Part shown: positions 24,860-43,624 of the stretch, in pieces
Layout of the letters: each line of letters starts with the position of its first letter
Position numbering within the stretch: position 1 is the stretch's first letter
DNA from: Minisyncoccota bacterium
GTDB lineage: Bacteria > Patescibacteriota > Minisyncoccia > Phycocordibacterales > Phycocordibacteraceae
Reading direction: 5' to 3'
Assembly: GCA_035547315.1 (NCBI GenBank)
Contig: DASZVH010000001.1
Coordinates: 1 to 58,458 of the forward strand
DNA length: 58,458 bases
Translations under genes and position numbers: made by a program
Notes under the pieces: generated by a model
What the model saw: the letters and a program-made list of their open reading frames with translations, nothing else
The model's database searches: none
Told to the model about the DNA's origin: nothing

Positions 24860-24923
24860 CGCGTCCTCCTTTGCTTCTGCCCGTACCCTACCGCACCGGG
24901 GGAAGAGAGTAAACGCTCGATTT

Positions 24924-26072
24924 TTACTTCTCGTCTTTCAAATACTTCTTCTTTTTGAGCTTGTCGGGGAGATACGGCTCTTTGTCGTAGAGCGTGTAGC
25001 CCTTGTGGTAGCCGAGCTCTTTCATGAGCTTGGTCGGGGCGTTGCGGACCTTCATCGGGATCGGCAGATTGCCGTGCGCTTTGACGTCCGCCACGGCCTC
25101 GAAGTAGGCGTCGTAGCTCTCGCGGCTCTTTTTCGCGAGCGCGAGATAGGCGGCGCCGTGCGCGAGGTTGGTAGCGCACTCCGGGTAGCCGATAGTCTCA
25201 GAGGCGCGGAAGACGTCGTTCGCTACTTGGAGCCCGACCGGGTCGGCAAGCCCGATATCCTCGGAGGCGAAGACCACCATCCGGCGCGCGATAAAGACCG
25301 GGTCCTCGCCTGCCTCCACCATCCGCGCGAGGTAGTAGAGCGCCGCGTCCGGCTGGGATGCGCGCATGCTTTTAATAAACGCGGAGATGGTGTCGTAGTG
25401 CTCCTCGCCCTTCTTGTCGTAGCGCAGATGCGGCGACTCGAGCGCTTTCGCGAGCGATTCCTCGTCTACTTTTCCATACAGCGAGAGCGAGCCTTCTATG
25501 ATGCCGAGCGCCTTGCGCGCGTCGCCATTGGCGTAGCCGATGAGCCAGGCGACCGCATCCTTCTTTATATCGGGTGCTGCGCGGTGGATGATCTCCTCGA
25601 GATCCTTCTCGCTAAGCGGATTCAGCACGAACACGCGAGCGCGAGAGAGGAGCGCGGAGATGACCTCGAAGCTCGGATTCTCGGTGGTCGCGCCGATAAG
25701 GGTCAATTCCCCGCTCTCGACATACGGCAGGAGGAAATCCTGCTGCGCCTTGTTGAAGCGATGTATCTCATCGAGGAAGAGCACGCGCGGGCGGCTCGCG
25801 AGCAATCCGCCGCGCTTTTCTTCAACAATCTTGCGGATGTCCTCCTTCCCCGCCGAGACGGCCGAGAGCTCGTGGAGCTCGGCGTCGAGCGCCCGCGCGT
25901 AGATGCGCGCGAGCGTGGTCTTCCCGCTTCCCGGCGGCCCCCAGAGGATGAAGGAGAAGAGATGCTTCTTCTCGATTGCGACCCGGAGCGGCCTCCCTAG
26001 CCCAATCAAGTGCTCCTGCCCCACGACCTCATCGAGCGTTTGCGGGCGGACTTTGGCGGCAAGAGGCTCCAT
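24924..26072 (-). CDS. rarA: Replication-associated recombination protein A (RarA/MgsA)
   Basis: [57 protein letters not shown]. Confidence 0.96.
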
Positions 26073-26192
26073 GCCGCCTATTGTACGCCTCATCATTTCC
26101 TCGCGCTCGGGGTGAAATAATCGATGCTCCCGCGCGTATAAAATATCCCGTGCGAAATGCGGGAAGTGCGGTTATCGGCTAATGAAACCCTC

Positions 26193-30180: not shown

Positions 30181-31662
30181 ATGTCCCGCCCCGCCCCAAG
30201 CGGCTCCTTCCCTGTTCCGCCGGCGGTCGCTGCGGTCGCCCGCACGCTTGCGCAGGCCGGCCATGAGGCCTACTTCGTCGGGGGCTGCGTGCGCGATCTC
30301 CTCATCGGCCGCGAACCCAAAGATTGGGACGTGACCACCAACGCCGACCCGGCGCAGATACAGGCCCTATTCCCCGATTCCTTCTACGAGAACGACTTCG
30401 GCACCGTGGGGGTCAAGACCGGCTCGGGCGACCCGACGACGGAAATCGTAGAGGTGACTCCTTATCGCACCGAGTCGGGCTATAGCGACAAGCGTCGGCC
30501 GGACGCCGTGGCCTTCGGCCATTCGCTCGAGGAGGATCTCGCGCGGCGCGACTTTACCATCAACGCCATCGCCATGGATGTTAAGGGACATATCGTTGAC
30601 CCTTATAAAGGACAAAAGGACATAGAGACAAAGGTCATCCGCGCGGTAGGCGACCCTTTAATCCGATTCGAGGAGGATGCACTGCGGCTTATGCGGGCTG
30701 TCCGCCTGGTGGCGCAACTCGGCTTCGCTCTCGATAGCGAGACGGCGGCCGCGATACAGCAAAAGGCCGCTAATCTAAGCCATATCTCACGGGAGCGGGT
30801 ACGCGACGAGCTCATCCGCATTTTGGAGTCGCAACAGCCGATGACTGCTCTCGTGCTTGCCCAGCAGCTGGGCATTTTGGCATTTATTGCGCCCGATCTT
30901 AGCCGCGGCGTCGGCGTGGAGCAAAATCAGGCCCACAGCTACGACGTCTTCGGCCACCTTATGCGGAGCATGCAGCATGCTGCTGACAAGGGCTGGGACT
31001 TCGACATACGTCTTGCCGCCCTCTTCCACGATGTCTCTAAGCCGGAGACCCGTCGTTGGTCTGATGAAAAGAAGGACTGGACCTTTCATGGGCATGAGGT
31101 AGTCGGTTCACGTGTAACGAAAAAAGCTCTCGAAGACCTTCATTTTTCACGCGAAACAATAGAAAGAGTCGTGAAACTCGTGCGATGGCACATGTTTTTC
31201 TCCGATCCAGACCAGGTGACCCTCTCCGCAGTGCGGCGCGTGATTACCAATGTTGGGAAGGAGAATATCGATGACCTCCTTAAGCTCCGCATCTGCGACC
31301 GCATCGGGACGGGGCGGCCCAAGGAGCAGCCCTTTCGCCTGCGTAAGTACATGGCGATGGTGGATCAGGCGCTCCGCGATCCGATCAGCGTTGGGATGCT
31401 CAAGACTAACGGCAGCCAGATCATGGAGAAGTTCCACGTGCAACCGGGGCCGGTCATCGGCTGGACCTTGAACGCGCTCCTCGAAGAGGTCCTCGATGAC
31501 CCTAAGCGCAATACTCCCGATTATCTCGATAATCGAACAGCCGAGCTGCTCGCGATGCCGCCTGAGGAGCTCAGGACGCTGGGCGAATCCGGCAAGCAAA
31601 AGAGGGAAGAACGCGAGGATCAGGAAGTGCGCGAAATAATGGAGAAGCATCACGTGTGCTAG
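30181..31662 (+). CDS. cca: CCA tRNA nucleotidyltransferase with HD domain
   Basis: VGGCVRDLL, DWD, EEDLARRDFTINA, EDALRLMRAVR, SRERV, HD domain (H.YDV..H, HDVSK, HGHE). Confidence 0.93.
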   Translation: MSRPAPSGSFPVPPAVAAVARTLAQAGHEAYFVGGCVRDLLIGREPKDWDVTTNADPAQIQALFPDSFYENDFGTVGVKTGSGDPTTEIVEVTPYRTESGYSDKRRPDAVAFGHSLEEDLARRDFTINAIAMDVKGHIVDPYKGQKDIETKVIRAVGDPLIRFEEDALRLMRAVRLVAQLGFALDSETAAAIQQKAANLSHISRERVRDELIRILESQQPMTALVLAQQLGILAFIAPDLSRGVGVEQNQAHSYDVFGHLMRSMQHAADKGWDFDIRLAALFHDVSKPETRRWSDEKKDWTFHGHEVVGSRVTKKALEDLHFSRETIERVVKLVRWHMFFSDPDQVTLSAVRRVITNVGKENIDDLLKLRICDRIGTGRPKEQPFRLRKYMAMVDQALRDPISVGMLKTNGSQIMEKFHVQPGPVIGWTLNALLEEVLDDPKRNTPDYLDNRTAELLAMPPEELRTLGESGKQKREEREDQEVREIMEKHHVC

Positions 31663-33213: not shown

Positions 33214-34128
33214 CTAGCTATGCGAGTGGTACTTCTTATGCACCTCGCGCAGGTGGGAGTCGGTGATATGCGTGTAGATCTGCGTGGTGTTGATGGAGGC
33301 GTGGCCGAGGAGCTGCTGGACGCTCCGTAAATCGGCGCCGTTCCCGAGGAGGTCGGTCGCGAAAGCGTGGCGCAGGATGTGCGGCGTGACCTTCTTTGTG
33401 ATGCCGGCCATCGCGGCGTATGTTTTCAAATGCCGCTGGACGTCGCGCGGCGTGATGCGGTGCAGTTTGGTCTCCCGCCCGTCGAGGAAGAGCGCCTCCT
33501 CCATATCCTTGCGCGCCTTGAGATACTCGCGCACCGCCTGCTTGGCGCTCTCGGAGAGGAAGACGACGCGCACTTTCTCGCCCTTGCCGCGCACCGAGAG
33601 GTCGTCGCGCGAGAGGTCGAGGTCGCTGTCGAGCGCGCAGAGCTCGGAGACGCGCAGCCCGGTGGAGAAGAGGAGCTCGAGTATGGCTTTATCGCGAAGA
33701 TACGCGCGCCGTTTGTGCTCGTCTTTCTCCTTCGCGAGCGCCTCGGCGGGCGCTTTCATTAGTCGGGAGAGTTCCGCGGTTGTAATCAGCGTGATCTCGC
33801 GCTCAGGGAGCTTGGCGAGCTCGATGCGCTCCGGAGAGAGCGCCTCGACGCCGCGCTTGCGCAGATATTTGAGGAATGCGCGCAGCGCGATCATGTAGTA
33901 GTTCTGGGTGCGGCGCTTCATCGGGCCGTTCTGCGCTCCCGGCTGCCGGTTGAGCCAGAGGCGGAACTCGCGCACGTTCTGCTCGGTGATCTCGCTCGTA
34001 TCCTTGACGCCCATCTGGGCGAAGTAGCGGGTGAGATAGCGCTCATAGTTCTCGGTCGTCTTGACCGCGCGGCCGCGCTCGATCTCGAGATGCTCCAGAA
34101 ACTCTCGCTTGGCGCGCATCGACTCCAT
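33214..34128 (-). CDS. XerC/XerD-like tyrosine recombinase
   Basis: STGLRVSEL (R), GKGEKVR (K), TPHILRH (HxxR), LLGHA (H), TTQIYTH (Y). Confidence 0.95.
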   Translation of the reverse strand: MESMRAKREFLEHLEIERGRAVKTTENYERYLTRYFAQMGVKDTSEITEQNVREFRLWLNRQPGAQNGPMKRRTQNYYMIALRAFLKYLRKRGVEALSPERIELAKLPEREITLITTAELSRLMKAPAEALAKEKDEHKRRAYLRDKAILELLFSTGLRVSELCALDSDLDLSRDDLSVRGKGEKVRVVFLSESAKQAVREYLKARKDMEEALFLDGRETKLHRITPRDVQRHLKTYAAMAGITKKVTPHILRHAFATDLLGNGADLRSVQQLLGHASINTTQIYTHITDSHLREVHKKYHSHS

Positions 34129-34162
34129 GGGGCCATTCTACCCTGGCGCGCCGCGCGCGATA

Positions 34163-34597
34163 CTAGGCCGCGGGCTTGCGGAGCTTGCCGGCAAGCACGA
34201 TGCCGAGCGCGGCGAGCGCGTAGAGGACGGCGAGCGCGCGGGCGGCTGCGGCGCTCTCGATCGCGCCGCCGAGCGGGAGCCCGACAGGGAAGATGCCGAA
34301 GATGATGAAAAGCATCAGCGGCACATACCAGAGCGAGAATTTCACGAAACGACTGAACGCGCGCTCATCGGCGAGGAGGAGGATGAGAGCGGTGGGAAGA
34401 AGCCACTCGCCGAGGATCATTAATGTAAGGCCCAGATTTAAATTTGGTGAGTTGCAAAACTTCCCCCACTGATCGTAACTAAATTCGCATGAATTTATAG
34501 TAAGGTTCTGGAACCAGGGGCCTCGAAAATACTGCCCGACTAAATAAATTAAACCGGCGATACCAAATGCCGATGCTTTCTTAAGCGCGAGCTTCAT
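34163..34597 (-). CDS. Small multi-pass membrane protein, candidate immunity protein
   Basis: From MKLALKK (144 aa), about four TM segments, ATG overlaps the lipase TGA (ATGA); 5' half AT-rich. Confidence 0.7.
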   Translation of the reverse strand: MKLALKKASAFGIAGLIYLVGQYFRGPWFQNLTINSCEFSYDQWGKFCNSPNLNLGLTLMILGEWLLPTALILLLADERAFSRFVKFSLWYVPLMLFIIFGIFPVGLPLGGAIESAAAARALAVLYALAALGIVLAGKLRKPAA

Positions 34598-37500
34598 AAC
34601 TTCAAGTATTGTATCAGCCCGAGCATCGAAGCCGCTTGATCCTCGCTTAGTTTCACCCCCGCTTGAGCGCCGATGAGCGTTTCGAGCCAGGAGACATCGG
34701 CTTGCGCGCTCGCGAGCTCGCCCGCCTCGCCCGCGAGCTTCTCGATCTGCGCGAGGAGGCGATTCTTCACCCCCGGCCGCGCCGAGAGCGCCGCGACCTC
34801 CTGCCGCAGGAGCGAGAGCGCGTCGGCCGGCGCGAGCGCTGCGGGGGTGTCGCTCGCCACCTCGAGGTCGATGACGCCGTCGCCGTCGATATCCACTTGC
34901 GGCTCGCTCGCCGCGCCGCCCTCGATTGAGAAGGCCATCGTCGTCGAGGCCGTGGTCGGGATCGCAGCGAAGCTCTCCTCGCTCTGCACCGCGCCCTCCG
35001 CGTCTACCTCCTCGACCTCGAGCGTGGTGGGGCCCTGCGCATAGCCGGCCGCCGCGACGGAGTATGAGCCCTCTTGCGGGAGCGTCAGATACTCCTCGCC
35101 GCTCTCGAGGTCGACGGCGCTCTCGGGGATATGCGCGACCGTGAGCGCGAGGCCGGTCCCGGCGGCCGGCACGACGCCGGTCTCGTTGCCCGAGGCGTCG
35201 GTCGCGATGATATTGACGGGAGAGTGAGAGCTGATGATGACAAGAGGATCTTTTTTGGTCGAGGGCTTTAATGAGGTCAGATAAAAATTCGAGATGGGTT
35301 GTCCCTTTATCAAATCGCTGAGTGTTTCTTGAATAGGCTGGGCAGAGGTAAGATCCTGATGAGAGAAATTTTGATGGAAGTCCGTTCCGTATTTTTTCAA
35401 ATTGAAATACCACGCATCGGCGATGTCGCCGAGCGCGGAGGGCGAGACAACGGTGCCATCGCCGTCCTCCGTCTTCTTTTCGGTGTGCTGGAGGATCGGC
35501 TTGAGCTCGCAATGGGCCGGATTAAGCGGGTCCGAGCGGCCGCAGGAGAGGATGTTGAAGGCGGCTTTGGTGTAGTCGAGCGTCGCGGGAGTGAGCGAGC
35601 CCCACCCGGCGATGGCGCTCACCGCGATCCCTGCGGGCGGCTGCCAGGAGTCGAGCGCTTGGTGGCCCTCTTCCGCTTTCTGGATCGCGGAGACCGGCAG
35701 CGGCAGCGGCGCCTTCAGCGTCGAATTGTCGAACTGCTCGTCGATGCCTTTTCCGTCGTCGATGAAAGACTCGAATGCGCCGAAGGCGCTGATCGCGCTG
35801 CCGTATGCGTCGACGAACGGCTTGAGCAGCGCGTTGTCGGAAAACTCGACGACCGGCGTCGCCACGTGCGTGAAGTAGGCGGGCGAGGGCAGGAGCGCGT
35901 AGGCGTCGGGAATGACCTCGGCCTCGGCGCGCACCGCCTTGGCCGAGACCAGGTCGAGCCCGAAGCCGAGCCCGATCGACTGGCCGTCGCCATGGAGGAG
36001 CGAGCCGACCGCGGCGGGCGTGCCGAACTGCGGCGTGCCGACCAGGATGATGCGGTCGATATAATCGGCGGCGCTCGGGCCAAGCTCCTGCGTCAGCGCT
36101 TTGGCGAGGAGGCCGCCGTTGCTGTGCGCGATGATAGTGACTTTGCCGGTGGGGGAGGAGCTCGCCATCTGCGCGACGACGTCGGCGAGATAGACGCGCG
36201 CGATCGAGCCGTCGGGCTCCTCGGTGAGCGTGCCGTTCTTGACCACGTCGAGCGGGTCATAGCGCCAGTCGTAGGGATACGCGCGCCACTCCTTGATCGT
36301 GCTCGAGGCGACGAGCCCGTCGAGGAATTGCTCGAGCCCGCCGTAGACCTCGAGGTCGCCCGGCGCGATCGCTTTGACGAGGCGCGCGATGATGCCCGGG
36401 TCCTGGCTCCAGATCGAGTCGATTATGTCTTTGGTGTAGAGATTGTTCGCGCTCGAGCCGTCCAGGTTGATGGCGAGATACTTGAGGTCCGCGTCGCTCG
36501 CGGGCTCCCAGACCCGCTTCTCCGTGTTACTCGAGAGCTTCATATATAAGCGGCTCGCCTCGGTGCCGGGGATAAAGAGGACGCTCGAGTGCCCTGGCGG
36601 GGGCGCGAGGAACGGGTCGGCGGAGAGCCAGGGAGCATAGGAGACCGCGCCGCTTACGCTCGCTCCCGCGCCTTCCGGATTCCCTGCGGGCTCGGCGGGG
36701 CCGCTCGGGTCGCCCCAGTAGTCGTCTTCAGCCGAGGTGGTGGCGCTGCCGTCGTTCTCGATGCCGAAAGCGCCGGCCGCGCCGATATCGCTCTCGTGGA
36801 TCGTGAGCTCGCCCGAGGCCACGCGCGCGCCGGCGGGCAGATGCACGCGCTCGAGGTCGCTCGCGCCCTCCTCCTCGAGCACGTCCCGGCCGATCGAGCC
36901 CGAGAAGGAGGTGTCGCTGATCGAGAGCGTCCCGCCGGCGTTGAAGAGGGCGCTCGAGCAGGGGCTCGCGTCGACCGAGTCGTCCGCGCAGAGGCTCCGA
37001 TCCCACTCCTCGCCGCCGTGATCGAGAGCCGCGTGCGCGAGCGAGAGCGTGCCTCCGCTCTCGATCGCGATGCCGGGCCAGCCGGCGGCCTGCGCCTGCG
37101 CGCTCGGCGCAAGCGTCACCGGCGCCTCCGCGTTCCCCTGAGCGGAGAACGCGCCGGAGATATCGAGCCCGCCGTGCGGGCCGAAGGCGAGCGTCGCCCC
37201 CGGCGCGGCCGAAACGCTCGTGCCCTCGTCTACCGCGATGTACTCCTCGATCTCGTTAGCATAGGGCGGCGGCGGAAAGACCTGGGTATCGGCGAGATCG
37301 CTCGCGTCCCACTCGAGCGCAAGCGGCGCGGACTCCGGCCCTGCGAGCAGGAGCCCGCCCTCCACCGAGCTCGCCTCCGCAATAGTATCCTCGGCGAGCC
37401 TGAGCGTGCCGCCCGCCAGGTCGACGCCGCGGCCGCCCTTCTGCGAGGCGCCGATGGTCGTGCCCTCGATCGTGGTCGAGGCGGTATCTTCGCCGAACCA

Positions 37501-38046
37501 GCCGGAGAGGACGCCGCCTGCCAGGCCGTGCTCGAGGATTGACTCGCTGATGAAGAGCTCGCCGCGGCTCTGGATCATCGGCGGGAAGAAGAGCGTGTCG
37601 CCGCCCGAGCCCTCCGGCAGCGCGACGCCGTCGTAGCGCAGCCGCGCGTGCGCAAGCGAGAGGCGCGCCCCCGGCTCGACCACGATCGTGTTCACGTTGA
37701 AGACGCTCGGCGCCGAGGTCGCGGCGAGCGCGGCGGTATCGCCGCCGTAGCTCGCGTCGGCGATATCGGCGAAGACGACCTCCTCGGAACTCGAGGCGCT
37801 TCCCGCGACGAGCGCTCCCGAGATGTCGAAGGCGCCCTGCGGGTCGAGCTTGACCACGACGCCCGGCTCGATCGTGAGCGTCGCGCCCGCGGCGATCGAG
37901 AGGTCGGTATAGACGAGATACGGGCTCCGGTCGGGGGTCCAGGTGGCGTCGCTCGCGATGGATTCGGGCGCGACGGTGGCGGCGCGCGCGGAGAAAGGCG
38001 CGAGACAAAGGAGAAGCCCTGCGAGCATGAGCGTGCGAGCGCGCAT
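34594..38046 (-). CDS. Large secreted protein: beta-helix N-terminus plus LCAT/PLA2-like alpha/beta hydrolase
   Basis: Signal peptide from MRARTL; oxyanion FIPGTEASRL, PYDWR, nucleophile AHSNGG, GTPQFGTP, GDGTV (Asp), HQDL (His); DIDGDGVID near the C-terminus. Confidence 0.85.
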   Translation of the reverse strand: MRARTLMLAGLLLCLAPFSARAATVAPESIASDATWTPDRSPYLVYTDLSIAAGATLTIEPGVVVKLDPQGAFDISGALVAGSASSSEEVVFADIADASYGGDTAALAATSAPSVFNVNTIVVEPGARLSLAHARLRYDGVALPEGSGGDTLFFPPMIQSRGELFISESILEHGLAGGVLSGWFGEDTASTTIEGTTIGASQKGGRGVDLAGGTLRLAEDTIAEASSVEGGLLLAGPESAPLALEWDASDLADTQVFPPPPYANEIEEYIAVDEGTSVSAAPGATLAFGPHGGLDISGAFSAQGNAEAPVTLAPSAQAQAAGWPGIAIESGGTLSLAHAALDHGGEEWDRSLCADDSVDASPCSSALFNAGGTLSISDTSFSGSIGRDVLEEEGASDLERVHLPAGARVASGELTIHESDIGAAGAFGIENDGSATTSAEDDYWGDPSGPAEPAGNPEGAGASVSGAVSYAPWLSADPFLAPPPGHSSVLFIPGTEASRLYMKLSSNTEKRVWEPASDADLKYLAINLDGSSANNLYTKDIIDSIWSQDPGIIARLVKAIAPGDLEVYGGLEQFLDGLVASSTIKEWRAYPYDWRYDPLDVVKNGTLTEEPDGSIARVYLADVVAQMASSSPTGKVTIIAHSNGGLLAKALTQELGPSAADYIDRIILVGTPQFGTPAAVGSLLHGDGQSIGLGFGLDLVSAKAVRAEAEVIPDAYALLPSPAYFTHVATPVVEFSDNALLKPFVDAYGSAISAFGAFESFIDDGKGIDEQFDNSTLKAPLPLPVSAIQKAEEGHQALDSWQPPAGIAVSAIAGWGSLTPATLDYTKAAFNILSCGRSDPLNPAHCELKPILQHTEKKTEDGDGTVVSPSALGDIADAWYFNLKKYGTDFHQNFSHQDLTSAQPIQETLSDLIKGQPISNFYLTSLKPSTKKDPLVIISSHSPVNIIATDASGNETGVVPAAGTGLALTVAHIPESAVDLESGEEYLTLPQEGSYSVAAAGYAQGPTTLEVEEVDAEGAVQSEESFAAIPTTASTTMAFSIEGGAASEPQVDIDGDGVIDLEVASDTPAALAPADALSLLRQEVAALSARPGVKNRLLAQIEKLAGEAGELASAQADVSWLETLIGAQAGVKLSEDQAASMLGLIQYLKL

Positions 38047-38146
38047 GAACTCATACAGGATACGACGAATACGCCCGGCGCGTGTAGAGAAGGTTATCCC
38101 CAGTTCTTGGGCAGCGGCGGCGCGCATGAGGTATACTGGCTGCACC

Positions 38147-41100
38147 ATGCCGTCGTTCTCAAAGCGGTTCGTTTTCGCGGCAGCCGTGCTCCTTCTTCCG
38201 CTCTCCTTCGCCCTCCCCGCGCACGCCGCCGAGCTCTCCGAGGACCAAATCAACTCGCTCCTCGCGCTCCTGACCTCCTTCGGCGTCGACCAAGCCACGC
38301 TCACTACCGTCGACGACATCCTCCACGGCATCACGCCGCCCGCCGCCAACTGCCCTGACCTCGAGCGTACCTTGGGCGAGGGGATGAGCGGCGCCGACGT
38401 TACCGCGCTTCAGCAGTTCCTCGCGGCGGACCCGACCGTCTATCCCGAGGGCCTCGTTACCGGCTATTTCGGCTCTTTGACGCAGGCCGCGGTACAGCGT
38501 TTCCAAGCCAAGCAAGGCATCATCAACTACGGTACTCCCGCCACCACAGGCTACGGCCTCGTGGGGCCTAAGACGCGCGCGACTATCGCCTCGGTCTGCC
38601 AGTTGAGCACCGTTGGTACGGGCGGCTACACAGGCGGTGGCGAGGGCGGAGGGGGTGGCGGCGGTGGTGGTGGCGGTGGTGGCGGAGGAGGAGGGGGCGG
38701 CGGGGGAGGAGGAGGGGGCGGCGGAGGGGGCGGAGGCGGCGACACTAACCCGCCCACGACGCCCGGCAATCTCCAGGGTACGCCGACCACCACGACCGTC
38801 GCGCTCTCCTGGAACGCCTCGAGCGACGACACGGGCGTCGCCGGCTATGACGTCTACGAAAACGGCAGCATGATCGCCTCGGGCTCGGACACGAGCTATG
38901 TCGCGGCAGGTCTTACCTGCGCTACGAGCTACACCTTCGCGGTCGACGCCTACGATGCCGCCGGCAACCGCTCGGGCCAGGCGAATATCCAGGTAACCAC
39001 CCAGGACTGCGGCGGAGGGGGCGACACCAACCCGCCCACGACGCCCGGCAGCTTCGGCGCGAGCGGCGTTACCGCCTCGCAGGTCCAGCTCTCCTGGGGC
39101 GCCTCGAGCGACGACACGGGTGTTGCGGGCTACGACATATATAAGAACGGAGTTTCCTCCTGGTCGACCGCCTCGACCAGCTATTCCTTCACCGGCCTTA
39201 CCTGCGCGACCTCCTACACCTTCGGCGTCGACGCCTACGACGCCGCGGGCAACCACTCGGGCCAGGCGACCACCGCGACCACGACGCTCCCCTGCGTCGA
39301 CACGCAGCCGCCCTCCACCCCTGCGCCCGCCGTGGCCAGCTCATCGTCCGACTCGATAACGGCGCAGTGGAGCGCCTCGAGCGACGATACCGGCGTCGCG
39401 GGCTATGACGTCTACGAGAACGGCACCAAACTCGGCAGCACGACGAACCTCTCTTACGCCTTTACCGGCCTCTCCTGCGGTACGAGCTACACGCTCGGCG
39501 TCGACGCCTACGACGGCGCGGGCAATCACTCCGCGATCGGCACGGTGCAGGGCTCGACGCTCTCGTGCGGCGGCGGGGGCGGCAGTGGCGCGCAGATCGC
39601 CATCCCGACCTATCCGGAGAAGTCAGTGGTCATCGCGACGACGAACGTCCTCAACTACGGCGCCGACCCGACCGGGAAGACCGACTCGACCAACGCCTTC
39701 CAGCAGGCGCTCGATGCCGCGTTCGCCAAGGGCGGCGGCACGGTCTGGGCGCCGGCGGGCACGTACCGCTTCAACGGCCAGATCACGGTCCCCTCGAGCG
39801 TTACGCTGCGCGGCGACTGGAAACAGCCCACCGACTCCGACAAATCGGTTGGCGGTACCATCCTTGCGATTTACAACACGAGCAGCAGCTTCGTCCTCCT
39901 CGACGGTGCCGGTGGGCTCGAGGATTTGAATTTTTGGTATCCTTCGCAATCTATCACGAGCATTAATACGGCAGTTCCAGTGACGGTAGCGCTCGATCCG
40001 GACGCGCCGCACTCCTTGCGCAATCCTTCGGTTCTGGACAGCACATTCGTCAATCCGACCATGATTTTCGACGCGCGCGGAGCCTCTGGTAAGGGGATTG
40101 AACTTGACAATATATACGGTTCGCCGCTCGTGACCGGTGTCATCCTGGCCGACACGACAAGCGCTTGCCGTGTAAGCGACCTCCACCTCGGCGCCGTCTA
40201 TTGGGCCTCCTCGGGCCTCTCCGGCGCACCCTCGTATTCCGCGCTCGCGGACTACACCCGCACGCACACGATCGGCGCGGAGTATGACGATAATTGGCTC
40301 TCCTCGAACGTCTCACTCGATGACTTCGAGATAGGGCTCTATTATGCCGGCAAGTACAAGGGACCTAACAATCCGGTCGTGACCGGCGAGACCATCACGG
40401 GGCTCGAGATCAGTGGCGCCAATATCGGCATCAAGATCAGCCAGTACAACTTTTTCATGAGCGTTGCGTCGATAAGCGCTACCGCGGGCACGAATCCAAC
40501 CGCGATACTGATCACAAAGAATGATGCGAAGGGTAACCCTACCACGGGCCGGTTGGTGTTTGACGACACCACGCTCTCCTCGAGCGGCGCGGACATCACG
40601 AACCAATCGTCATCCTTCGATATCGACGCGGCCAATGACACCTTTGCCTCATGGGGCGGGTATGCGATCACCGTTGCCGGCGGCCTTGCGCTCGAGGGCG
40701 ATCACTTCTCTCAAGCGGCTTCGGGCAACACCAAGGATCTGTCGCTTGGAAGCTCAGTGCCGCGGGCCTTTATCGTCGGCAATACCTATCCGAGTGGGCA
40801 AAGCGCGATCGCCATGGATAGCGCGGCGAATCCGAGCAATGTTTGGGTTGCCGAGGGCCTCACTGATACAGTGCTTGCTGCACTCGGTATAAGCGGGTTT
40901 CCGAGCTCAGGCTACACGGTTGATGCGCTTGCCCACCTCGCGCCGCCGCAGCCCAAGCCCGCCCGCACTGGTACCGACTCCCTTTATGATGTCACCGCCT
41001 ACGGCGCGAAGGCAGACTGTATCGACAGCGATTTCAACGATTCGGGCATTATGACCGGCGGTTGCACCGACAACACAGCAGCATTCCAAGCGGCGCTCAA

Positions 41101-43624
41101 TGCGGCCGGTAATGCAGGCGGCGGCACCGTGTATGTGCCCGGCAGTCCGGCGACCGGCATGGGGTACTTTTTCACCGGCAACCTCCGTGTGCCCACGGGA
41201 GTTGAGCTTACCGGTGCGCCACAGGATTCCGCATTCCACACGCTTGATACGCAGACCGCGCTTTTCGTGCAAGGGAATTCTTCACCCTTCATCGCGCTTT
41301 CCTCGAATGCGGGCGTGCGTGGCCTCGCGTTCTGGTATACCAACCAAGACGCCTATCATCAGGCGCCGTACAATGGGCCGCAGCCTTTCGGCTACACCAT
41401 TCAGGCGCAAGGCGCCGGGGATTGGGTCGAGAATGTCGTTAACGCAAATGCGACCTATGGACTCGATTTCGGCACTTACGGCTCGACCGGCCACTTTATC
41501 GACAACTACCAAGCAGCGGTGCTCCGCGACGGTATCTTCGTGAGCAAGAGCACGAGCGGTTTTATTGGGAATCTGCAGACAGTCTTTACTTTCTGGCTCG
41601 ACCTTGGGAAAGGCTCCGGCGACAACCAGAAAATTCTCTCGTACCCCGAGCCTTTCGGGAATCCTCCCTCAGACTTGGATCAAAACGGAAACAGAGATAC
41701 TGACACCGGCGAACCCGCGGATGCGTATGCTTCGGGGAGTGGGCTTCTTTTGGGGAGTGCCAAGAACGAAGTCATCCAGAGCGTGTATCTCCACGGCCCC
41801 CATTACGGTATCCAGACAGTAAACGACAACGGCGGGCCCAGCTTCACGCTTCTTAATTTCGGCTCTGAGACGTATACCGGCCTTGATGTCGAGGCGCTCG
41901 ATCCGGCCGGCGCCAAGATACTCGCGGCCCAGTACCACACGATCGCGGACAGCTGCTATCCCGCCAGCTGCGGCGACGCGGTGGGCAAGCCTTATCTCAT
42001 CGTCGGCAGCGGCGTCGCGCCGACCACGCCGATCACCTTCTTCTCCTACGCCAATCATTCGATGACGCCGATCGGCTTCGATCTCTCCGGAGGAAAAACC
42101 ATCATCGAGCAATACTCAAGCGACCTGCAGGCTAACACAATCGCGAGCATTCAGACGGCAGCGGCAATCCACGGGGCTCTGACCGGCTTCGCGCTTCTCG
42201 ACGGGAAATTCCTCAATTCGCTCACCGCGCCGGCTCGGCAAGGCGGTCCGAGCAATCCGAACGCGACGGTCGTTTCCGACGACCTGAGTCCCAATGTTGC
42301 GCTCGTGGGCATCTGGGCGGTCGATAATCCGGCTCAAGTGAGCGGTCCGGTTGATCTCACCTACCAGCCTTGGTTCACGGGCGGAGGCAGCGGCCCCGAT
42401 ACGACGCCGCCTTCCGCGCCGACCAATCTTGCCGGCACCGGCGCGGGGGGCGTGGCGGCGCTCACCTGGACTGCCTCCACCGACGACGTTGGTGTCGCGG
42501 GCTACAAGGTGATCCGCGACGGCGCGCAGATCGCGACCACCACGCTCGCGCTCTACACGGATCTTGGGGTAACGGTCGGTCAGACTTACACTTATAAAGT
42601 CAAGGCCTTCGACGCGGCGGGCAATGTCTCAGGCGCTTCCAATGCGGCGCAGGTGACGATCCTCGGCCACAGCGGTCTTGGCACCCCTTCAGGCGGAGGC
42701 AGCTCGCAGCTTCAGGAGGGTGCCGGCACCTGCAACGCACCGGCAGCAAACCTCGCGTTTGGCGCCACCGGCGCGGCGGTGACCACCCTCCAGCAAGCGC
42801 TCATCGCGCTCGGCTACTCGCTCCCGGCCGGCGCCACCGGCTACTACGGCAGCCAGACCGTCGCGGCGGTCGAGGCCTTCCAAGCCGCGCACGGGATCGT
42901 CTCCTCGGGGAGCGCCGCGACGACCGGCTTCGGCGCCGCGGGCCCCACCACGCGCGCGGCGCTCGAGAGCGTCTGCGGCAGCGCGCCCTCCTCTCCTGTG
43001 AGCGGCACCGGCGCGGCCGGCGGCACCTCGGGCGCGGCCGGCGGCACCGGCGGCTCGGCCCCGGCGAGCGGCGCGGGGAGCGCCGGCGGCGGCAGCTGCC
43101 CGCTGCTGCCTACGACGCTCGCCGAGGGCTCCTCGGGCACCGCGGTCACCGCGCTGCAGCAGCTCCTGCTCGCGCTCGGCTACTCGCTCCCGGCCGGCGC
43201 CACCGGCTACTACGGCAGCCAGACCGTCGCGGCGGTCGAGGCCTTCCAGATTTCCCATACGATCGTCTACTCGGGCACGCCGGCCTCCACCGGCTTCGGC
43301 GCCGCGGGGCCGCGTACCGTCGCTGCGCTCGCTGCCGCATGTGGCTCCTCCTCGAACAGCCCAACCAACCCCTCTTCGGAGACTTCGGGCGGTCTCGGCA
43401 CGTCGACGCAATCGGGCACCGGCGCCGTCGGCGGAGTGAGCTCGGGCACGGGCACGGGCGGCACCGGCGCGGCCGGCGGCACCTCGGGCGCGGCCGGCAG
43501 CACCAGCTCCGGCACCGGCACCTCGGGCGCAGCCGACAGCACCAGCACCAGCTCCGGCACCGGCACGGCGACCTCGACGAGCAAGGGTTCTGCGGTCGGC
43601 GGCCTCAGCCCCTCCTCGCGCTAG
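38147..43624 (+). CDS. Giant secreted protein (1825 aa): 3 peptidoglycan-binding domains, 4 FN3, two Pectate_lyase_3-like beta-helix glycosidase modules
   Basis: PG-binding DVTALQQFL...TGYFGSLT.AAV..FQ (x3); FN3 DT.PP..P...W.AS.DD.GVAGY (x4); NVLNYGADPTGKTDSTNAFQ and YDVTAYGAK...DNTAAFQ with GGGTV..P.G.Y; poly-Gly linker. Confidence 0.85.
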   Translation: MPSFSKRFVFAAAVLLLPLSFALPAHAAELSEDQINSLLALLTSFGVDQATLTTVDDILHGITPPAANCPDLERTLGEGMSGADVTALQQFLAADPTVYPEGLVTGYFGSLTQAAVQRFQAKQGIINYGTPATTGYGLVGPKTRATIASVCQLSTVGTGGYTGGGEGGGGGGGGGGGGGGGGGGGGGGGGGGGGGGGGDTNPPTTPGNLQGTPTTTTVALSWNASSDDTGVAGYDVYENGSMIASGSDTSYVAAGLTCATSYTFAVDAYDAAGNRSGQANIQVTTQDCGGGGDTNPPTTPGSFGASGVTASQVQLSWGASSDDTGVAGYDIYKNGVSSWSTASTSYSFTGLTCATSYTFGVDAYDAAGNHSGQATTATTTLPCVDTQPPSTPAPAVASSSSDSITAQWSASSDDTGVAGYDVYENGTKLGSTTNLSYAFTGLSCGTSYTLGVDAYDGAGNHSAIGTVQGSTLSCGGGGGSGAQIAIPTYPEKSVVIATTNVLNYGADPTGKTDSTNAFQQALDAAFAKGGGTVWAPAGTYRFNGQITVPSSVTLRGDWKQPTDSDKSVGGTILAIYNTSSSFVLLDGAGGLEDLNFWYPSQSITSINTAVPVTVALDPDAPHSLRNPSVLDSTFVNPTMIFDARGASGKGIELDNIYGSPLVTGVILADTTSACRVSDLHLGAVYWASSGLSGAPSYSALADYTRTHTIGAEYDDNWLSSNVSLDDFEIGLYYAGKYKGPNNPVVTGETITGLEISGANIGIKISQYNFFMSVASISATAGTNPTAILITKNDAKGNPTTGRLVFDDTTLSSSGADITNQSSSFDIDAANDTFASWGGYAITVAGGLALEGDHFSQAASGNTKDLSLGSSVPRAFIVGNTYPSGQSAIAMDSAANPSNVWVAEGLTDTVLAALGISGFPSSGYTVDALAHLAPPQPKPARTGTDSLYDVTAYGAKADCIDSDFNDSGIMTGGCTDNTAAFQAALNAAGNAGGGTVYVPGSPATGMGYFFTGNLRVPTGVELTGAPQDSAFHTLDTQTALFVQGNSSPFIALSSNAGVRGLAFWYTNQDAYHQAPYNGPQPFGYTIQAQGAGDWVENVVNANATYGLDFGTYGSTGHFIDNYQAAVLRDGIFVSKSTSGFIGNLQTVFTFWLDLGKGSGDNQKILSYPEPFGNPPSDLDQNGNRDTDTGEPADAYASGSGLLLGSAKNEVIQSVYLHGPHYGIQTVNDNGGPSFTLLNFGSETYTGLDVEALDPAGAKILAAQYHTIADSCYPASCGDAVGKPYLIVGSGVAPTTPITFFSYANHSMTPIGFDLSGGKTIIEQYSSDLQANTIASIQTAAAIHGALTGFALLDGKFLNSLTAPARQGGPSNPNATVVSDDLSPNVALVGIWAVDNPAQVSGPVDLTYQPWFTGGGSGPDTTPPSAPTNLAGTGAGGVAALTWTASTDDVGVAGYKVIRDGAQIATTTLALYTDLGVTVGQTYTYKVKAFDAAGNVSGASNAAQVTILGHSGLGTPSGGGSSQLQEGAGTCNAPAANLAFGATGAAVTTLQQALIALGYSLPAGATGYYGSQTVAAVEAFQAAHGIVSSGSAATTGFGAAGPTTRAALESVCGSAPSSPVSGTGAAGGTSGAAGGTGGSAPASGAGSAGGGSCPLLPTTLAEGSSGTAVTALQQLLLALGYSLPAGATGYYGSQTVAAVEAFQISHTIVYSGTPASTGFGAAGPRTVAALAAACGSSSNSPTNPSSETSGGLGTSTQSGTGAVGGVSSGTGTGGTGAAGGTSGAAGSTSSGTGTSGAADSTSTSSGTGTATSTSKGSAVGGLSPSSR
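42804..43248 (+). repeat. 79-bp exact direct repeat (42804-42882 and 43170-43248)
   Basis: TCGCGCTCGGCTACTCG...GAGGCCTTCCA occurs twice, within the duplicated PG-binding domains. Confidence 0.9.

What the first reader, a model, noticed from the sequence alone, without database searches (positions are those of the whole stretch)
34163..38046. Secreted LCAT-like phospholipase coupled to a small membrane protein: effector-immunity-like pair
Seen: a 1150-aa protein with a complete Ser-Asp-His set is translationally coupled (ATGA) to a 144-aa membrane protein. Two AT-rich patches interrupt GC-rich DNA: about 35270-35410, which encodes the catalytic-His region, and about 34420-34600, the partner's N-terminal half. 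Known: lipase effectors (Tle-like) sit next to cognate immunity genes and co-diversify. Inference: a secretion-system-independent polymorphic lipase module that lets a lipid-auxotrophic CPR cell attack or harvest host membranes, with swapped specificity segments.
Basis: partly seen in the sequence, partly recalled or inferred. Interest (0 to 1): 0.63.

Follow-up and report, generated by a model that had tools for sequence, protein, structure and literature searches.

The report
Exported lipase, membrane partner, swappable patches
An ultra-small soil bacterium that cannot make its own lipids exports an LCAT/LPLA2-type lipase encoded with a tiny four-helix membrane protein, and the two AT-rich patches in this gene pair are cassettes that differ between near-identical strains, which suggests a matched lipase/partner recognition surface.

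Summary
A 1150-aa exported protein overlaps (ATGA) a 144-aa membrane-protein gene, and two AT-rich patches are real.

- **Enzyme:** the core is an LCAT/lysosomal-phospholipase-A2-fold hydrolase. Ser642, Asp863 and His896 are invariant in 82 orthologues.
- **Partner:** an unnamed four-helix membrane protein with one disulfide-braced outside loop. It lies directly downstream in 68 of about 77 Patescibacteria loci that have room, sometimes as diverged tandem copies.
- **Genome:** 641 kb, and it lacks FabF-, PlsC- and PlsY-type genes.

The patches are not translation signals. A near-identical strain in independent soil metagenomes is 97-100% identical across the locus except for two sharp islands:
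- 35239-35403 (lipase aa 882-936, around the catalytic His; 31 of 55 residues differ);
- 34414-34541 (the partner's outside loop).

The same two islands separate paralogue pairs in other genomes. Both stay AT-rich in orthologues whatever the genome GC.

Best reading (about 0.45): these are the matched recognition surfaces of an exported lipase and its membrane-embedded protector or dock, an effector/immunity-like pair without a secretion system. Binding and protection are untested. A family-wide covariation test was null, and the partner almost never occurs without the lipase.

The parts
34594..38046 (-). Gene for the 1150-aa exported LCAT/LPLA2-like lipase (P0001)
   Evidence: ORF and translation. 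Pfam LCAT PF02450 scores 35.4 bits against a cut-off of 21. Foldseek top hits are LPLA2 4x97 (E 2e-13, TMt 0.68) and LCAT 5bv7 (E 1e-10, TMt 0.64). More than 466 homologues in Patescibacteria.
37978..38046 (-). Signal peptide (aa 1-23, MRARTLMLAGLLLCLAPFSARA|A), Sec/SPase-I type
   Evidence: Read from the sequence. The family consensus keeps a hydrophobic N-terminus followed by AxA. The cleavage site is inferred.
36604..37977 (-). Variable N-terminal region (aa 24-481) with beta-helix-like repeats, probably a targeting or adhesin module
   Evidence: Low pLDDT in the model. It is shared with only a few homologues. Other homologues carry NosD/Beta_helix or Bact_surface_Ig-like domains in this position.
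35245..36603 (-). LCAT/LPLA2-fold alpha/beta-hydrolase core (aa 482-934). Ser642 = 36121-36123, Asp863 = 35458-35460, His896 = 35359-35361. YDWR motif at aa 592-595.
   Evidence: Confident model, fold matches, invariant residues.
35239..35403 (-). Hypervariable AT-rich cassette 1 (lipase aa 882-936: helices around the catalytic His and the linker to the beta-sandwich)
   Evidence: In runs X2, X3 and X5 it is replaced by 165 other letters that are less than 80% alike, with sharp borders. In L102, 31 of 55 residues differ, against 3 differences in the rest of the protein. GC3 z = -8.0. The segment is AT-rich at the same position in orthologues. It is a divergence island between paralogues.
34891..35244 (-). 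Beta-sandwich domain (aa 935-1052)
   Evidence: Secondary structure and pLDDT of the model.
34597..34830 (-). C-terminal helical tail (aa 1073-1150), tail type T1
   Evidence: Model. Tail clustering gives T1 in 37 loci. Tail types need only 5 changes on the core tree.
34594..34597 (-). ATGA stop/start overlap (translational coupling)
   Evidence: The same 4-nt overlap occurs in 25 of 68 orthologous loci. In nearly all the others the partner starts within about 40 nt of the lipase stop; a few listed gaps are wider, from overlaps of 10-133 nt to gaps of 114-224 nt.
34163..34597 (-). Gene for the 144-aa four-helix membrane partner (P0002). TM helices 3-25, 53-73, 78-101, 115-139. Outside loop with a beta-hairpin between Cys37 and Cys48.
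   Evidence: Translation. Model pLDDT 91.8. No Pfam family and no PDB fold match (best E 0.9). The family lies directly downstream of the lipase in 68 loci. The public annotation calls only the last 85 aa (P0123), but the 144-147-aa form is conserved.
34414..34541 (-). Hypervariable AT-rich cassette 2 (partner aa ~19-62: end of TM1, the whole outside Cys loop, start of TM2)
   Evidence: Replaced by 131 other letters in X2 and X3. Nucleotide identity is 48-56% against 98-100% in the 3' half of the gene. Allele P0127 differs mostly at aa 10-63 (with four more changes at aa 74-82) and is identical from aa 83 on. GC3 z = -8.8. Among close pairs, aa 15-56 are 19-28% identical against 80-85% for aa 71-98.

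Best explanation
This is a two-gene module. Gene 1 encodes a Sec-exported, multi-domain enzyme: a variable N-terminal targeting region, an LCAT/lysosomal-PLA2-fold Ser-Asp-His hydrolase, a beta-sandwich and a helical tail. It most likely acts as a phospholipase A or CoA-independent transacylase on membranes outside the cell. Gene 2 is translationally coupled to it and encodes a dedicated four-helix membrane protein. Its only sizeable exposed part is a disulfide-braced loop. The two AT-rich patches are hypervariable cassettes that recombine between strains and paralogues. One encodes the lipase surface around the catalytic His. The other encodes the partner's outside loop. I infer that these are the two sides of a cognate contact. 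The partner would capture its own lipase at the producer's membrane and so protect (immunity-like) and/or tether it, while the enzyme attacks or harvests foreign membranes for a cell that cannot make lipids. The AT-richness is a by-product of hypervariability. It could arise from frequent import from a lower-GC gene pool, or from AT-biased mutation with weak GC selection in a fast-evolving segment. Shown: the fold, the triad, export signals, the conserved pairing, the cassette replacement and the lipid auxotrophy. Inferred: enzyme activity, physical contact, protection and the target.
For: Enzyme: Pfam LCAT above cut-off. Fold matches to LPLA2 and LCAT. S642/D863/H896 and YDWR invariant in 82 of 82 orthologues. 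Pairing: a partner homologue sits directly downstream in 68 loci (gap -4 to +42 nt in nearly all; a few wider), and another small 3-4-TM ORF sits there in 5 of the 9 remaining loci. It is the only conserved neighbour. In 40 relatives, 17 of 18 genomes with the partner also have the lipase. Cassettes: the strain in X2, X3 and X5 is identical to the window apart from the two islands, and these are the only well-supported replacement joints in 20 kb. The same two islands separate within-genome paralogues L013/L017 and L040/L080. Partner-loop classes are shared across lineages and do not correlate with the lipase core (r = 0.00). Patch GC3 stays at about 0.2-0.5 while flank GC3 ranges over 0.21-0.90 in 83 orthologues. 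Immunity-like traits: diverged tandem partner copies (27-65% identity) in a dozen loci. Both variable segments are extracytoplasmic. Context: no PF00109, PF01553 or PF02660 in a 98.8%-complete genome. CPR cells are reported to take lipids, with many lysolipids, from other cells (PMC7242380).
Against: No binding, inhibition or toxicity data exist. A partial Mantel test of lipase patch against partner loop was null (p 0.40 in the close clade, 0.91 over all pairs). Divergence between and next to the patches is 2.7%, against 0.5% upstream. One import of about 1.3 kb could therefore have carried both cassettes, so their joint replacement is not two independent events. The partner is almost never an orphan in lipase-less relatives (1 of 19), unlike many immunity genes. 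The best-conserved partner residues (F81, W84, K86, F87 and P93, on helix 3 of the model) are not in the exposed loop; I read them as lying near the cytoplasmic side (inferred). Known lipase immunity proteins are soluble or lipoproteins, not polytopic membrane proteins. Some close pairs changed the loop with little change in the lipase patch (L070/L077).
Confidence: 0.45

Rival explanations
1. Lipid-harvest machine with an anchor or acceptor partner. The partner tethers the lipase or receives lysolipids or acyl chains into the membrane. The two exposed segments vary independently because outside agents (phages using the loop as a receptor, host inhibitors of the lipase) select for change, not because they touch each other.
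For: Lipase and partner co-occur strictly, and orphan partners are nearly absent. The conserved aromatic motif of the partner lies on helix 3 rather than in the exposed loop. The covariation test was null. The loop can change without the lipase patch changing (L070/L077). The genome lacks PlsC and PlsY, so a CoA-independent transacylase would fill a gap. Lysolipids are enriched in CPR (PMC7242380).
Against: Only about 55% of close relatives carry the module, so it cannot be the general lipid route. Diverged tandem partner arrays are odd for a stoichiometric anchor. Within-genome paralogues differ mainly at both segments at once.
Confidence: 0.3
2. The AT-rich patches are nucleotide-level signals: unstructured mRNA for re-initiation at the ATGA junction, slow-translation clusters for membrane insertion or folding, or an internal promoter for the partner. 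Their variability would be secondary.
For: Patch 2 spans the coupled start codon and the first 60 codons of a membrane protein. AT-richness at both positions is conserved across orthologues without raised synonymous identity.
Against: In low-GC orthologues the patches are not GC3-enriched, so the codons are not selected for being rare. No sigma-70-like promoter was found on the coding strain in patch 1. The lipase is a Sec substrate, so folding pauses at a domain border have little to act on (inference). This reading does not explain 31 of 55 residue changes between strains that are otherwise identical.
Confidence: 0.1
3. Artefact. The patches are assembly chimeras, or the 'variant strain' is a mis-assembly.
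For: The metagenome assemblies have low depth (about 3-7x for X2-X5). X4 contigs break at the patch borders.
Against: The window allele lies in a 16-kb contig of X1 with 0 differences. The variant joint appears identically in three runs. Both alleles keep intact reading frames. The same islands are seen in unrelated genomes.
Confidence: 0.03

Closest known systems
Lysosomal phospholipase A2 (PLA2G15/LPLA2) and lecithin:cholesterol acyltransferase (LCAT), Pfam PF02450
   Same: Same fold (Foldseek E 2e-13 and 1e-10, TMt 0.64-0.68). Pfam match above the cut-off. Ser-Asp-His order and the YDWR motif are shared. Both reference enzymes are extracytoplasmic and work at a lipid interface.
   Different: About 15% identity. 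The protein is bacterial and embedded in a 1150-aa multi-domain exported protein with a variable N-terminal module, a beta-sandwich and a helical tail. It is encoded with a dedicated 4-TM partner and has a hypervariable post-His segment. Activity is untested.
Antibacterial lipase effectors with cognate immunity genes: T6SS Tle1-5/Tli (from my own knowledge) and the T7SS phospholipase A TslA with the immunity lipoprotein TilA in Staphylococcus aureus (PMC10730906)
   Same: A lipase gene lies next to a small extracytoplasmic-facing partner gene. Partner genes occur in variable, diverged tandem copies. Sequence is variable between strains.
   Different: No T6SS or T7SS context; export is by signal peptide. 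The Pfam Tle3 match is below the cut-off (14.2 against 27 bits). The partner is a polytopic 4-TM protein, not a soluble protein or lipoprotein. The partner is hardly ever an orphan. Neutralisation has not been shown.
Polymorphic toxin/immunity systems with swapped CT-immunity cassettes (CdiA-CT/CdiI, Rhs), and membrane-embedded immunity proteins of pore-forming colicins (from my own knowledge)
   Same: Short cassettes in the toxin candidate and in the adjacent small gene are replaced between near-identical strains with sharp borders.
   Different: The variable part is a 55-residue surface patch inside a conserved catalytic domain, not a whole C-terminal toxin domain. No orphan cassettes or silent copies exist in this genome. 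Tail types track the core tree.
Family I.1/I.2 lipases with their downstream membrane-anchored foldase (LipA/Lif; PDB 2es4 and 9g8u appear among weak fold hits)
   Same: An exported lipase is followed in the operon by a membrane-anchored helper gene.
   Different: Lif has one TM segment and a large periplasmic helical domain that wraps the lipase. P0002 has four TM helices and only about 30 plus 13 exposed residues.

Membership tests
LCAT/LPLA2 family (Pfam PF02450) | Match to the family HMM above the curated cut-off | tested here: met
   35.4 bits against 21 for P0001. Homologues match HMM positions 53-353 of 392.
LCAT/LPLA2 family (Pfam PF02450) | Alpha/beta-hydrolase core with the LCAT-type accessory domains (fold) | tested here: met
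   The top 8 Foldseek PDB hits are LPLA2 and LCAT, TMt 0.62-0.68, with about 470 aligned columns. Model pLDDT is mostly 80-97 over aa 482-930.
LCAT/LPLA2 family (Pfam PF02450) | Ser (xHSxG elbow), Asp and His catalytic triad in that order | tested here: met
   S642, D863 and H896 are invariant in 82 of 82 orthologues.
LCAT/LPLA2 family (Pfam PF02450) | Phospholipase A or acyltransferase activity | not testable with these tools
   Needs an enzyme assay.
T6SS Tle/Tli lipase effector-immunity pairs | Membership of a Tle sequence family | tested here: not met
   Only a 54-residue elbow match to PF24322 Tle3, 14.2 bits against a cut-off of 27.
T6SS Tle/Tli lipase effector-immunity pairs | Genetic linkage to a secretion apparatus (VgrG, Hcp, PAAR) | tested here: not met
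   The only conserved neighbour in 80 loci is the small membrane protein. In the window the neighbours are a XerC/D-like recombinase and a divergently transcribed giant surface protein. The whole genome was not scanned for T6SS genes.
T6SS Tle/Tli lipase effector-immunity pairs | Adjacent cognate immunity protein that binds and neutralises the lipase | tested here: inconclusive
   The adjacent dedicated partner is conserved and co-variable cassettes exist. Binding was not tested and the covariation test was null.
Polymorphic toxin systems (CdiA-CT/CdiI, Rhs type) | Conserved delivery region with a swappable C-terminal toxin domain plus immunity gene | tested here: not met
   The catalytic core is the conserved part. 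Tail types change only 5 times on the core tree. The swapped unit is a 55-residue patch plus the partner loop.
Polymorphic toxin systems (CdiA-CT/CdiI, Rhs type) | Orphan toxin-end/immunity cassettes | tested here: not met
   One lipase copy and one partner copy in the genome, and no second copy of either patch. Remnant-like copies do exist in relatives (G017, G024).
Diversity-generating retroelement target | A template repeat near-identical to the variable region, differing at adenines | tested here: not met
   blastn of both patches against the whole genome finds only the patches themselves. The alleles are about 50% identical and patch 2 has a 3-nt length change. A reverse transcriptase gene was not searched for.
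Lipase/foldase (LipA/Lif) pairs | Partner with a large extracytoplasmic helical domain that embraces the lipase | tested here: not met
   P0002 is four TM helices with short loops.

The most novel reading that the evidence does not exclude
The module is a secretion-system-independent, bacteriocin-like lipase weapon of ultra-small bacteria. A Sec-exported LCAT-fold phospholipase would be neutralised on the producer's own single membrane by a polytopic immunity protein. That protein's disulfide-braced loop would plug the surface next to the catalytic His. Matched allelic 'lock and key' cassettes in the two genes would be kept in populations by frequency-dependent selection and shuffled by recombination. 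They would decide which neighbours (rival CPR cells or hosts) can be attacked and which are protected.
Probability: 0.3. Interest if true: 0.8.

Novelty: new variant of a known kind. Interest (0 to 1): 0.62.

Why it matters
Patescibacteria (CPR) make up a large share of bacterial diversity, and most cannot make fatty acids or phospholipids. How they obtain lipids, or breach other cells, is unknown.

- This module is widespread: more than 500 species-level genomes carry it. It is also patchy, present in about half of close relatives.
- It pairs an animal-type lipid-transfer/phospholipase fold with a membrane protein family that has no name and no structural relative.
- I found no paper describing it.
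- The two genes carry matched, recombining hypervariable cassettes at exposed sites. That makes the specificity hypothesis concrete: two natural alleles of each side are now in hand for cognate versus non-cognate experiments.
- It also gives a practical rule. Sharp AT-rich, low-GC3 islands inside genes of a GC-rich genome can flag hypervariable interaction surfaces.

Tried and rejected
1. **Patches as conserved translation or rare-codon signals.** I held this view until the strain data arrived. The patches are AT-rich at the same place in orthologues. But in low-GC genomes they do not become GC3-rich, and they are replaced between strains.
2. **Internal promoter in patch 1.** No sigma-70-like site on the coding strand.
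3. **DGR or silent-cassette donors.** No second copy of either patch in the genome or in 100 loci.
4. **Shuffling of whole C-terminal modules.** Tail types need only 5 changes on the core tree.
5. **Link between tail type and partner presence.** None is evident.
6. **Family-wide covariation of patch and loop.** Null.
7. **Sequence search of solved structures with the family profile.** Only elbow-level hits.
8. **Pfam and PDB fold search for the partner.** Nothing.
9. **JGI metagenome scan for more strains.** No relatives found.
11. **Genome-wide survey of low-GC3 patches.** My crude GC3-based gene calls included many wrong frames. It supports only the statement that internal patches are rare.


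Full report
**1. What is there**

On the minus strand, 34594..38046 encodes a 1150-aa protein (P0001) and 34163..34597 encodes a 144-aa protein (P0002). The stop of the first gene and the start of the second overlap as ATGA. Sliding-window GC confirms two AT-rich patches. GC is 0.41-0.42 at 35225-35374 and 34400-34624, in DNA of 0.65-0.77.

The drop is in synonymous sites too. GC3 falls from about 0.9 to 0.40-0.50. Given the encoded amino acids and the window's codon usage, this is 8.0 and 8.8 standard deviations below expectation.

**2. The large protein**

- Pfam LCAT (PF02450) matches above its cut-off, at 35.4 bits against 21.
- An AlphaFold2 model built on 25 homologues is confident for aa 482-1150 and poor for aa 1-481.
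- Foldseek against the PDB puts lysosomal phospholipase A2 (4x97, E 2e-13, TMt 0.68) and LCAT (5bv7, E 1e-10, TMt 0.64) first.
- Ser642 in AHSNGG, Asp863, His896 and the YDWR motif are invariant in 82 of 82 orthologues.
- The N-terminus looks like a Sec signal peptide with an AxA site.
- Homologues carry different N-terminal modules (NosD/beta-helix, bacterial surface Ig-like) in front of the same core.
- After the core come a beta-sandwich (aa 935-1052) and a helical tail.

**3. The small protein**

The model is very confident (pLDDT 91.8). It shows four TM helices (3-25, 53-73, 78-101, 115-139) and a beta-hairpin in the first outside loop, between the nearly invariant Cys37 and Cys48. The positive-inside rule places both termini in the cytoplasm (inference).

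No Pfam or NCBIfam family matches, and no PDB fold matches (best E 0.9). The public annotation calls only the last 85 residues (P0123). The 144-147-aa form is conserved in relatives.

**4. The pairing is conserved**

- A scan of one genome per prokaryotic species found at least 519 loci encoding relatives, all apparently Patescibacteria. I kept 80.
- A jackhmmer search from P0002 finds a family member directly downstream of the lipase in 68 loci, 25 of them with the same 4-nt overlap; in nearly all the others the gap is no more than about 40 nt.
- Nine loci with room lack a family member. Five of these have another 3-4-TM small ORF at that position, and four have none.
- No other neighbour is conserved.
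- A dozen loci have two to four partner copies, mostly 27-65% identical.
- In 40 relatives, 22 genomes match the lipase query (21 if G031, which matches only the N-terminal region, is left out) and 18 have the partner, and 17 have both. Identity within the genus is only 33-51%.
- One relative (G022) keeps a partner without a lipase at a site syntenic with G020, which keeps a lipase without a partner.
- The window's genome has one copy of each gene.

**5. Context**

The genome is 641 kb and 98.8% complete. It has no ketoacyl synthase, no PlsC-type acyltransferase and no PlsY-type acyltransferase, so the 'lipid-auxotroph' premise holds here. Probst et al. reported that CPR lack lipid synthesis, carry ordinary acyl lipids with many lysolipids, and probably derive them from other cells (PMC7242380). 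A secreted phospholipase was proposed for this role in Vampirococcus (PMC8080830). I found no paper on this LCAT-like family in CPR.

**6. The AT-rich patches**

*First result.* The same two positions are AT-rich in orthologues from other GC-rich genomes. Across 83 orthologues, patch GC3 stays near 0.2-0.5 while flank GC3 ranges from 0.21 to 0.90. The patch-minus-flank difference by flank GC3 is:

| Flank GC3 | Mean difference | Share negative |
|---|---|---|
| 0.7 and above | -0.30 | 8 of 8 |
| 0.5-0.7 | -0.14 | 89% |
| 0.3-0.5 | -0.10 | 83% |
| below 0.3 | -0.03 | 60% |

The N-half versus the C-half of the partner behaves in the same way. Synonymous codon identity is not raised in the patch. 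Taken alone, this looked like a conserved compositional constraint and argued against 'swapped segments'.

*Second result, which changed my reading.* Independent soil metagenomes hold a near-identical strain (X2, X3 and X5 from one study, X4 from another). Its contigs match the window at 34000-34413, 34542-35238 and 35404-38092. The contigs carry 131 other letters in place of 34414-34541, and 165 other letters in place of 35239-35403. These letters do not align even at 80% likeness.

I recovered the contig (L102) through the partner allele P0127.
- Nucleotide identity is 100% over about 1.4 kb of the 5' part of the lipase gene and 93-100% elsewhere. It is 47-57% in the two islands.
- At protein level, 31 of the 55 residues from aa 882 to 936 differ, and His896 is kept. 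Only 3 residues differ in the rest of the lipase.
- In the partner, the differences lie mostly at aa 10-63 (four more at aa 74-82), and residues 83-144 are identical.
- Both alleles are AT-rich.
- In 20 kb around the locus, these are the only well-supported replacement joints.

*Third result.* The same two islands separate recently duplicated modules inside single genomes.
- L013/L017: lipase core 92% identical, patch 62%, partner loop 48%, rest of the partner 92%.
- L040/L080: 94%, 73%, 28% and 57% for the same four regions.
- Over ten close pairs, partner aa 15-56 are 19-28% identical against 80-85% for aa 71-98. Lipase aa 885-934 (with 835-859 and 785-809) are the least conserved windows of the core.
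- Partner-loop classes are shared between distant orthologues and do not follow the lipase core (r = 0.00 in the close clade).

No template or silent copy of either patch exists in the genome, so a DGR or an intragenomic cassette store is excluded.

**7. Interpretation**

Two exposed segments, one on each gene product, are hypervariable and exchanged by recombination. Their AT-richness is best explained as a consequence of that. Either the cassettes circulate in a gene pool that is mostly lower in GC, or fast adaptive turnover under AT-biased mutation overwhelms the weak forces that keep GC3 high. This point is inference.

The simplest functional reading is a cognate contact between the lipase surface next to the catalytic His and the partner's loop. 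The partner would neutralise and/or dock the cell's own lipase on its only membrane.

I hold it at about 0.45 for these reasons:
- Nothing shows binding.
- The family-wide partial Mantel test was null.
- The slightly raised divergence between and beside the patches (2.7% against 0.5%) fits a single import of about 1.3 kb carrying both cassettes.
- The partner is almost never an orphan.
- Its best-conserved residues lie on helix 3 rather than in the exposed loop.
- No polytopic lipase immunity protein is known to me.

The main rival (0.3) is an anchor or acceptor partner in a lipid-harvest device, with both exposed segments varying under pressure from phages or hosts.

**8. Novelty**

The enzyme fold and the idea of lipase/immunity pairs are known. 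The partner family, the Sec-only architecture in CPR and the matched hypervariable cassettes are not described in the literature I could search. Earlier notes of this scan had already recorded the lipase plus 4-TM module in many other genomes. None mentions the AT-rich cassettes. Those notes agree with my sections 2-5 but are not independent evidence.

Noticed in passing
window 24946-25742: Against the near-identical strain (X2) this stretch has 66 differences in 797 nt (about 8%), while neighbouring contigs differ by less than 0.7%. It overlaps another AT-rich patch (24870-25040), in ORF 24924..26096(-) if that frame is the gene. It may be a further divergence island.
   Followed up: no
window 31028-31235 (ORF 30181..31662 +, with an HD..GHE-type segment): An internal low-GC3 patch (50-codon GC3 of 0.42) sits on a segment containing an HD..GHE motif in a housekeeping-type gene (I read it as a CCA-adding/HD-type enzyme from the sequence; not searched against families). 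So not every AT-rich intragenic patch in this genome need be a hypervariable cassette.
   Followed up: no
window 34163-34597 and 34594-38148: The public annotation differs from the conserved gene models. The partner is called as only 85 aa (P0123, starting MILGEW, downstream of the AT-rich half). The lipase is called as 1184 aa (P0126) from an upstream start, while a Logan call gives 1144 aa (P0003).
   Followed up: partly
L100 (G020:C6) and L099 (G022:C63): Two same-genus genomes share a downstream gene whose N-terminus looks PEBP/YbhB-like to me (not searched against families). G020 has a 746-aa lipase, without the C-terminal tail, overlapping that gene and no partner. G022 has a partner homologue but no lipase ORF upstream. 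These look like reciprocal losses.
   Followed up: partly
L046, L063, L053, L079, L057 (directly downstream of the lipase stop): Some lipase clades are followed by other small 3-4-TM proteins (92-123 aa) that the P0002-family profile does not recognise. They are either very diverged partners or replacement by other families.
   Followed up: partly
L098 (G024:C2:66500-74500) and L095 (G017:C1): Partner homologues sit next to truncated lipase remnants. One is a 317-aa ORF with only the beta-sandwich part. The other is a 569-aa ORF that ends just as the lipase domain begins. They could be decayed paralogues or orphan-like cassettes.
   Followed up: partly
L096 (G037:C10:44500-49740): Two partner copies with identical C-terminal ends are separated by two unrelated genes (430 and 245 aa). 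This suggests an insertion into a partner array. The inserted genes were not identified.
   Followed up: no
window 37943-43624 (+): A divergently transcribed giant ORF (about 1.8-1.9 kaa), apparently a secreted surface protein, with a poly-Gly run and a Gly/Ser/Thr-rich tail visible in the translation. A first-stage note (e1-5213469) also lists PG-binding, FN3 and beta-helix modules, which I did not check. It starts within about 100 nt of the lipase start. Together they form a surface/attack gene neighbourhood.
   Followed up: no
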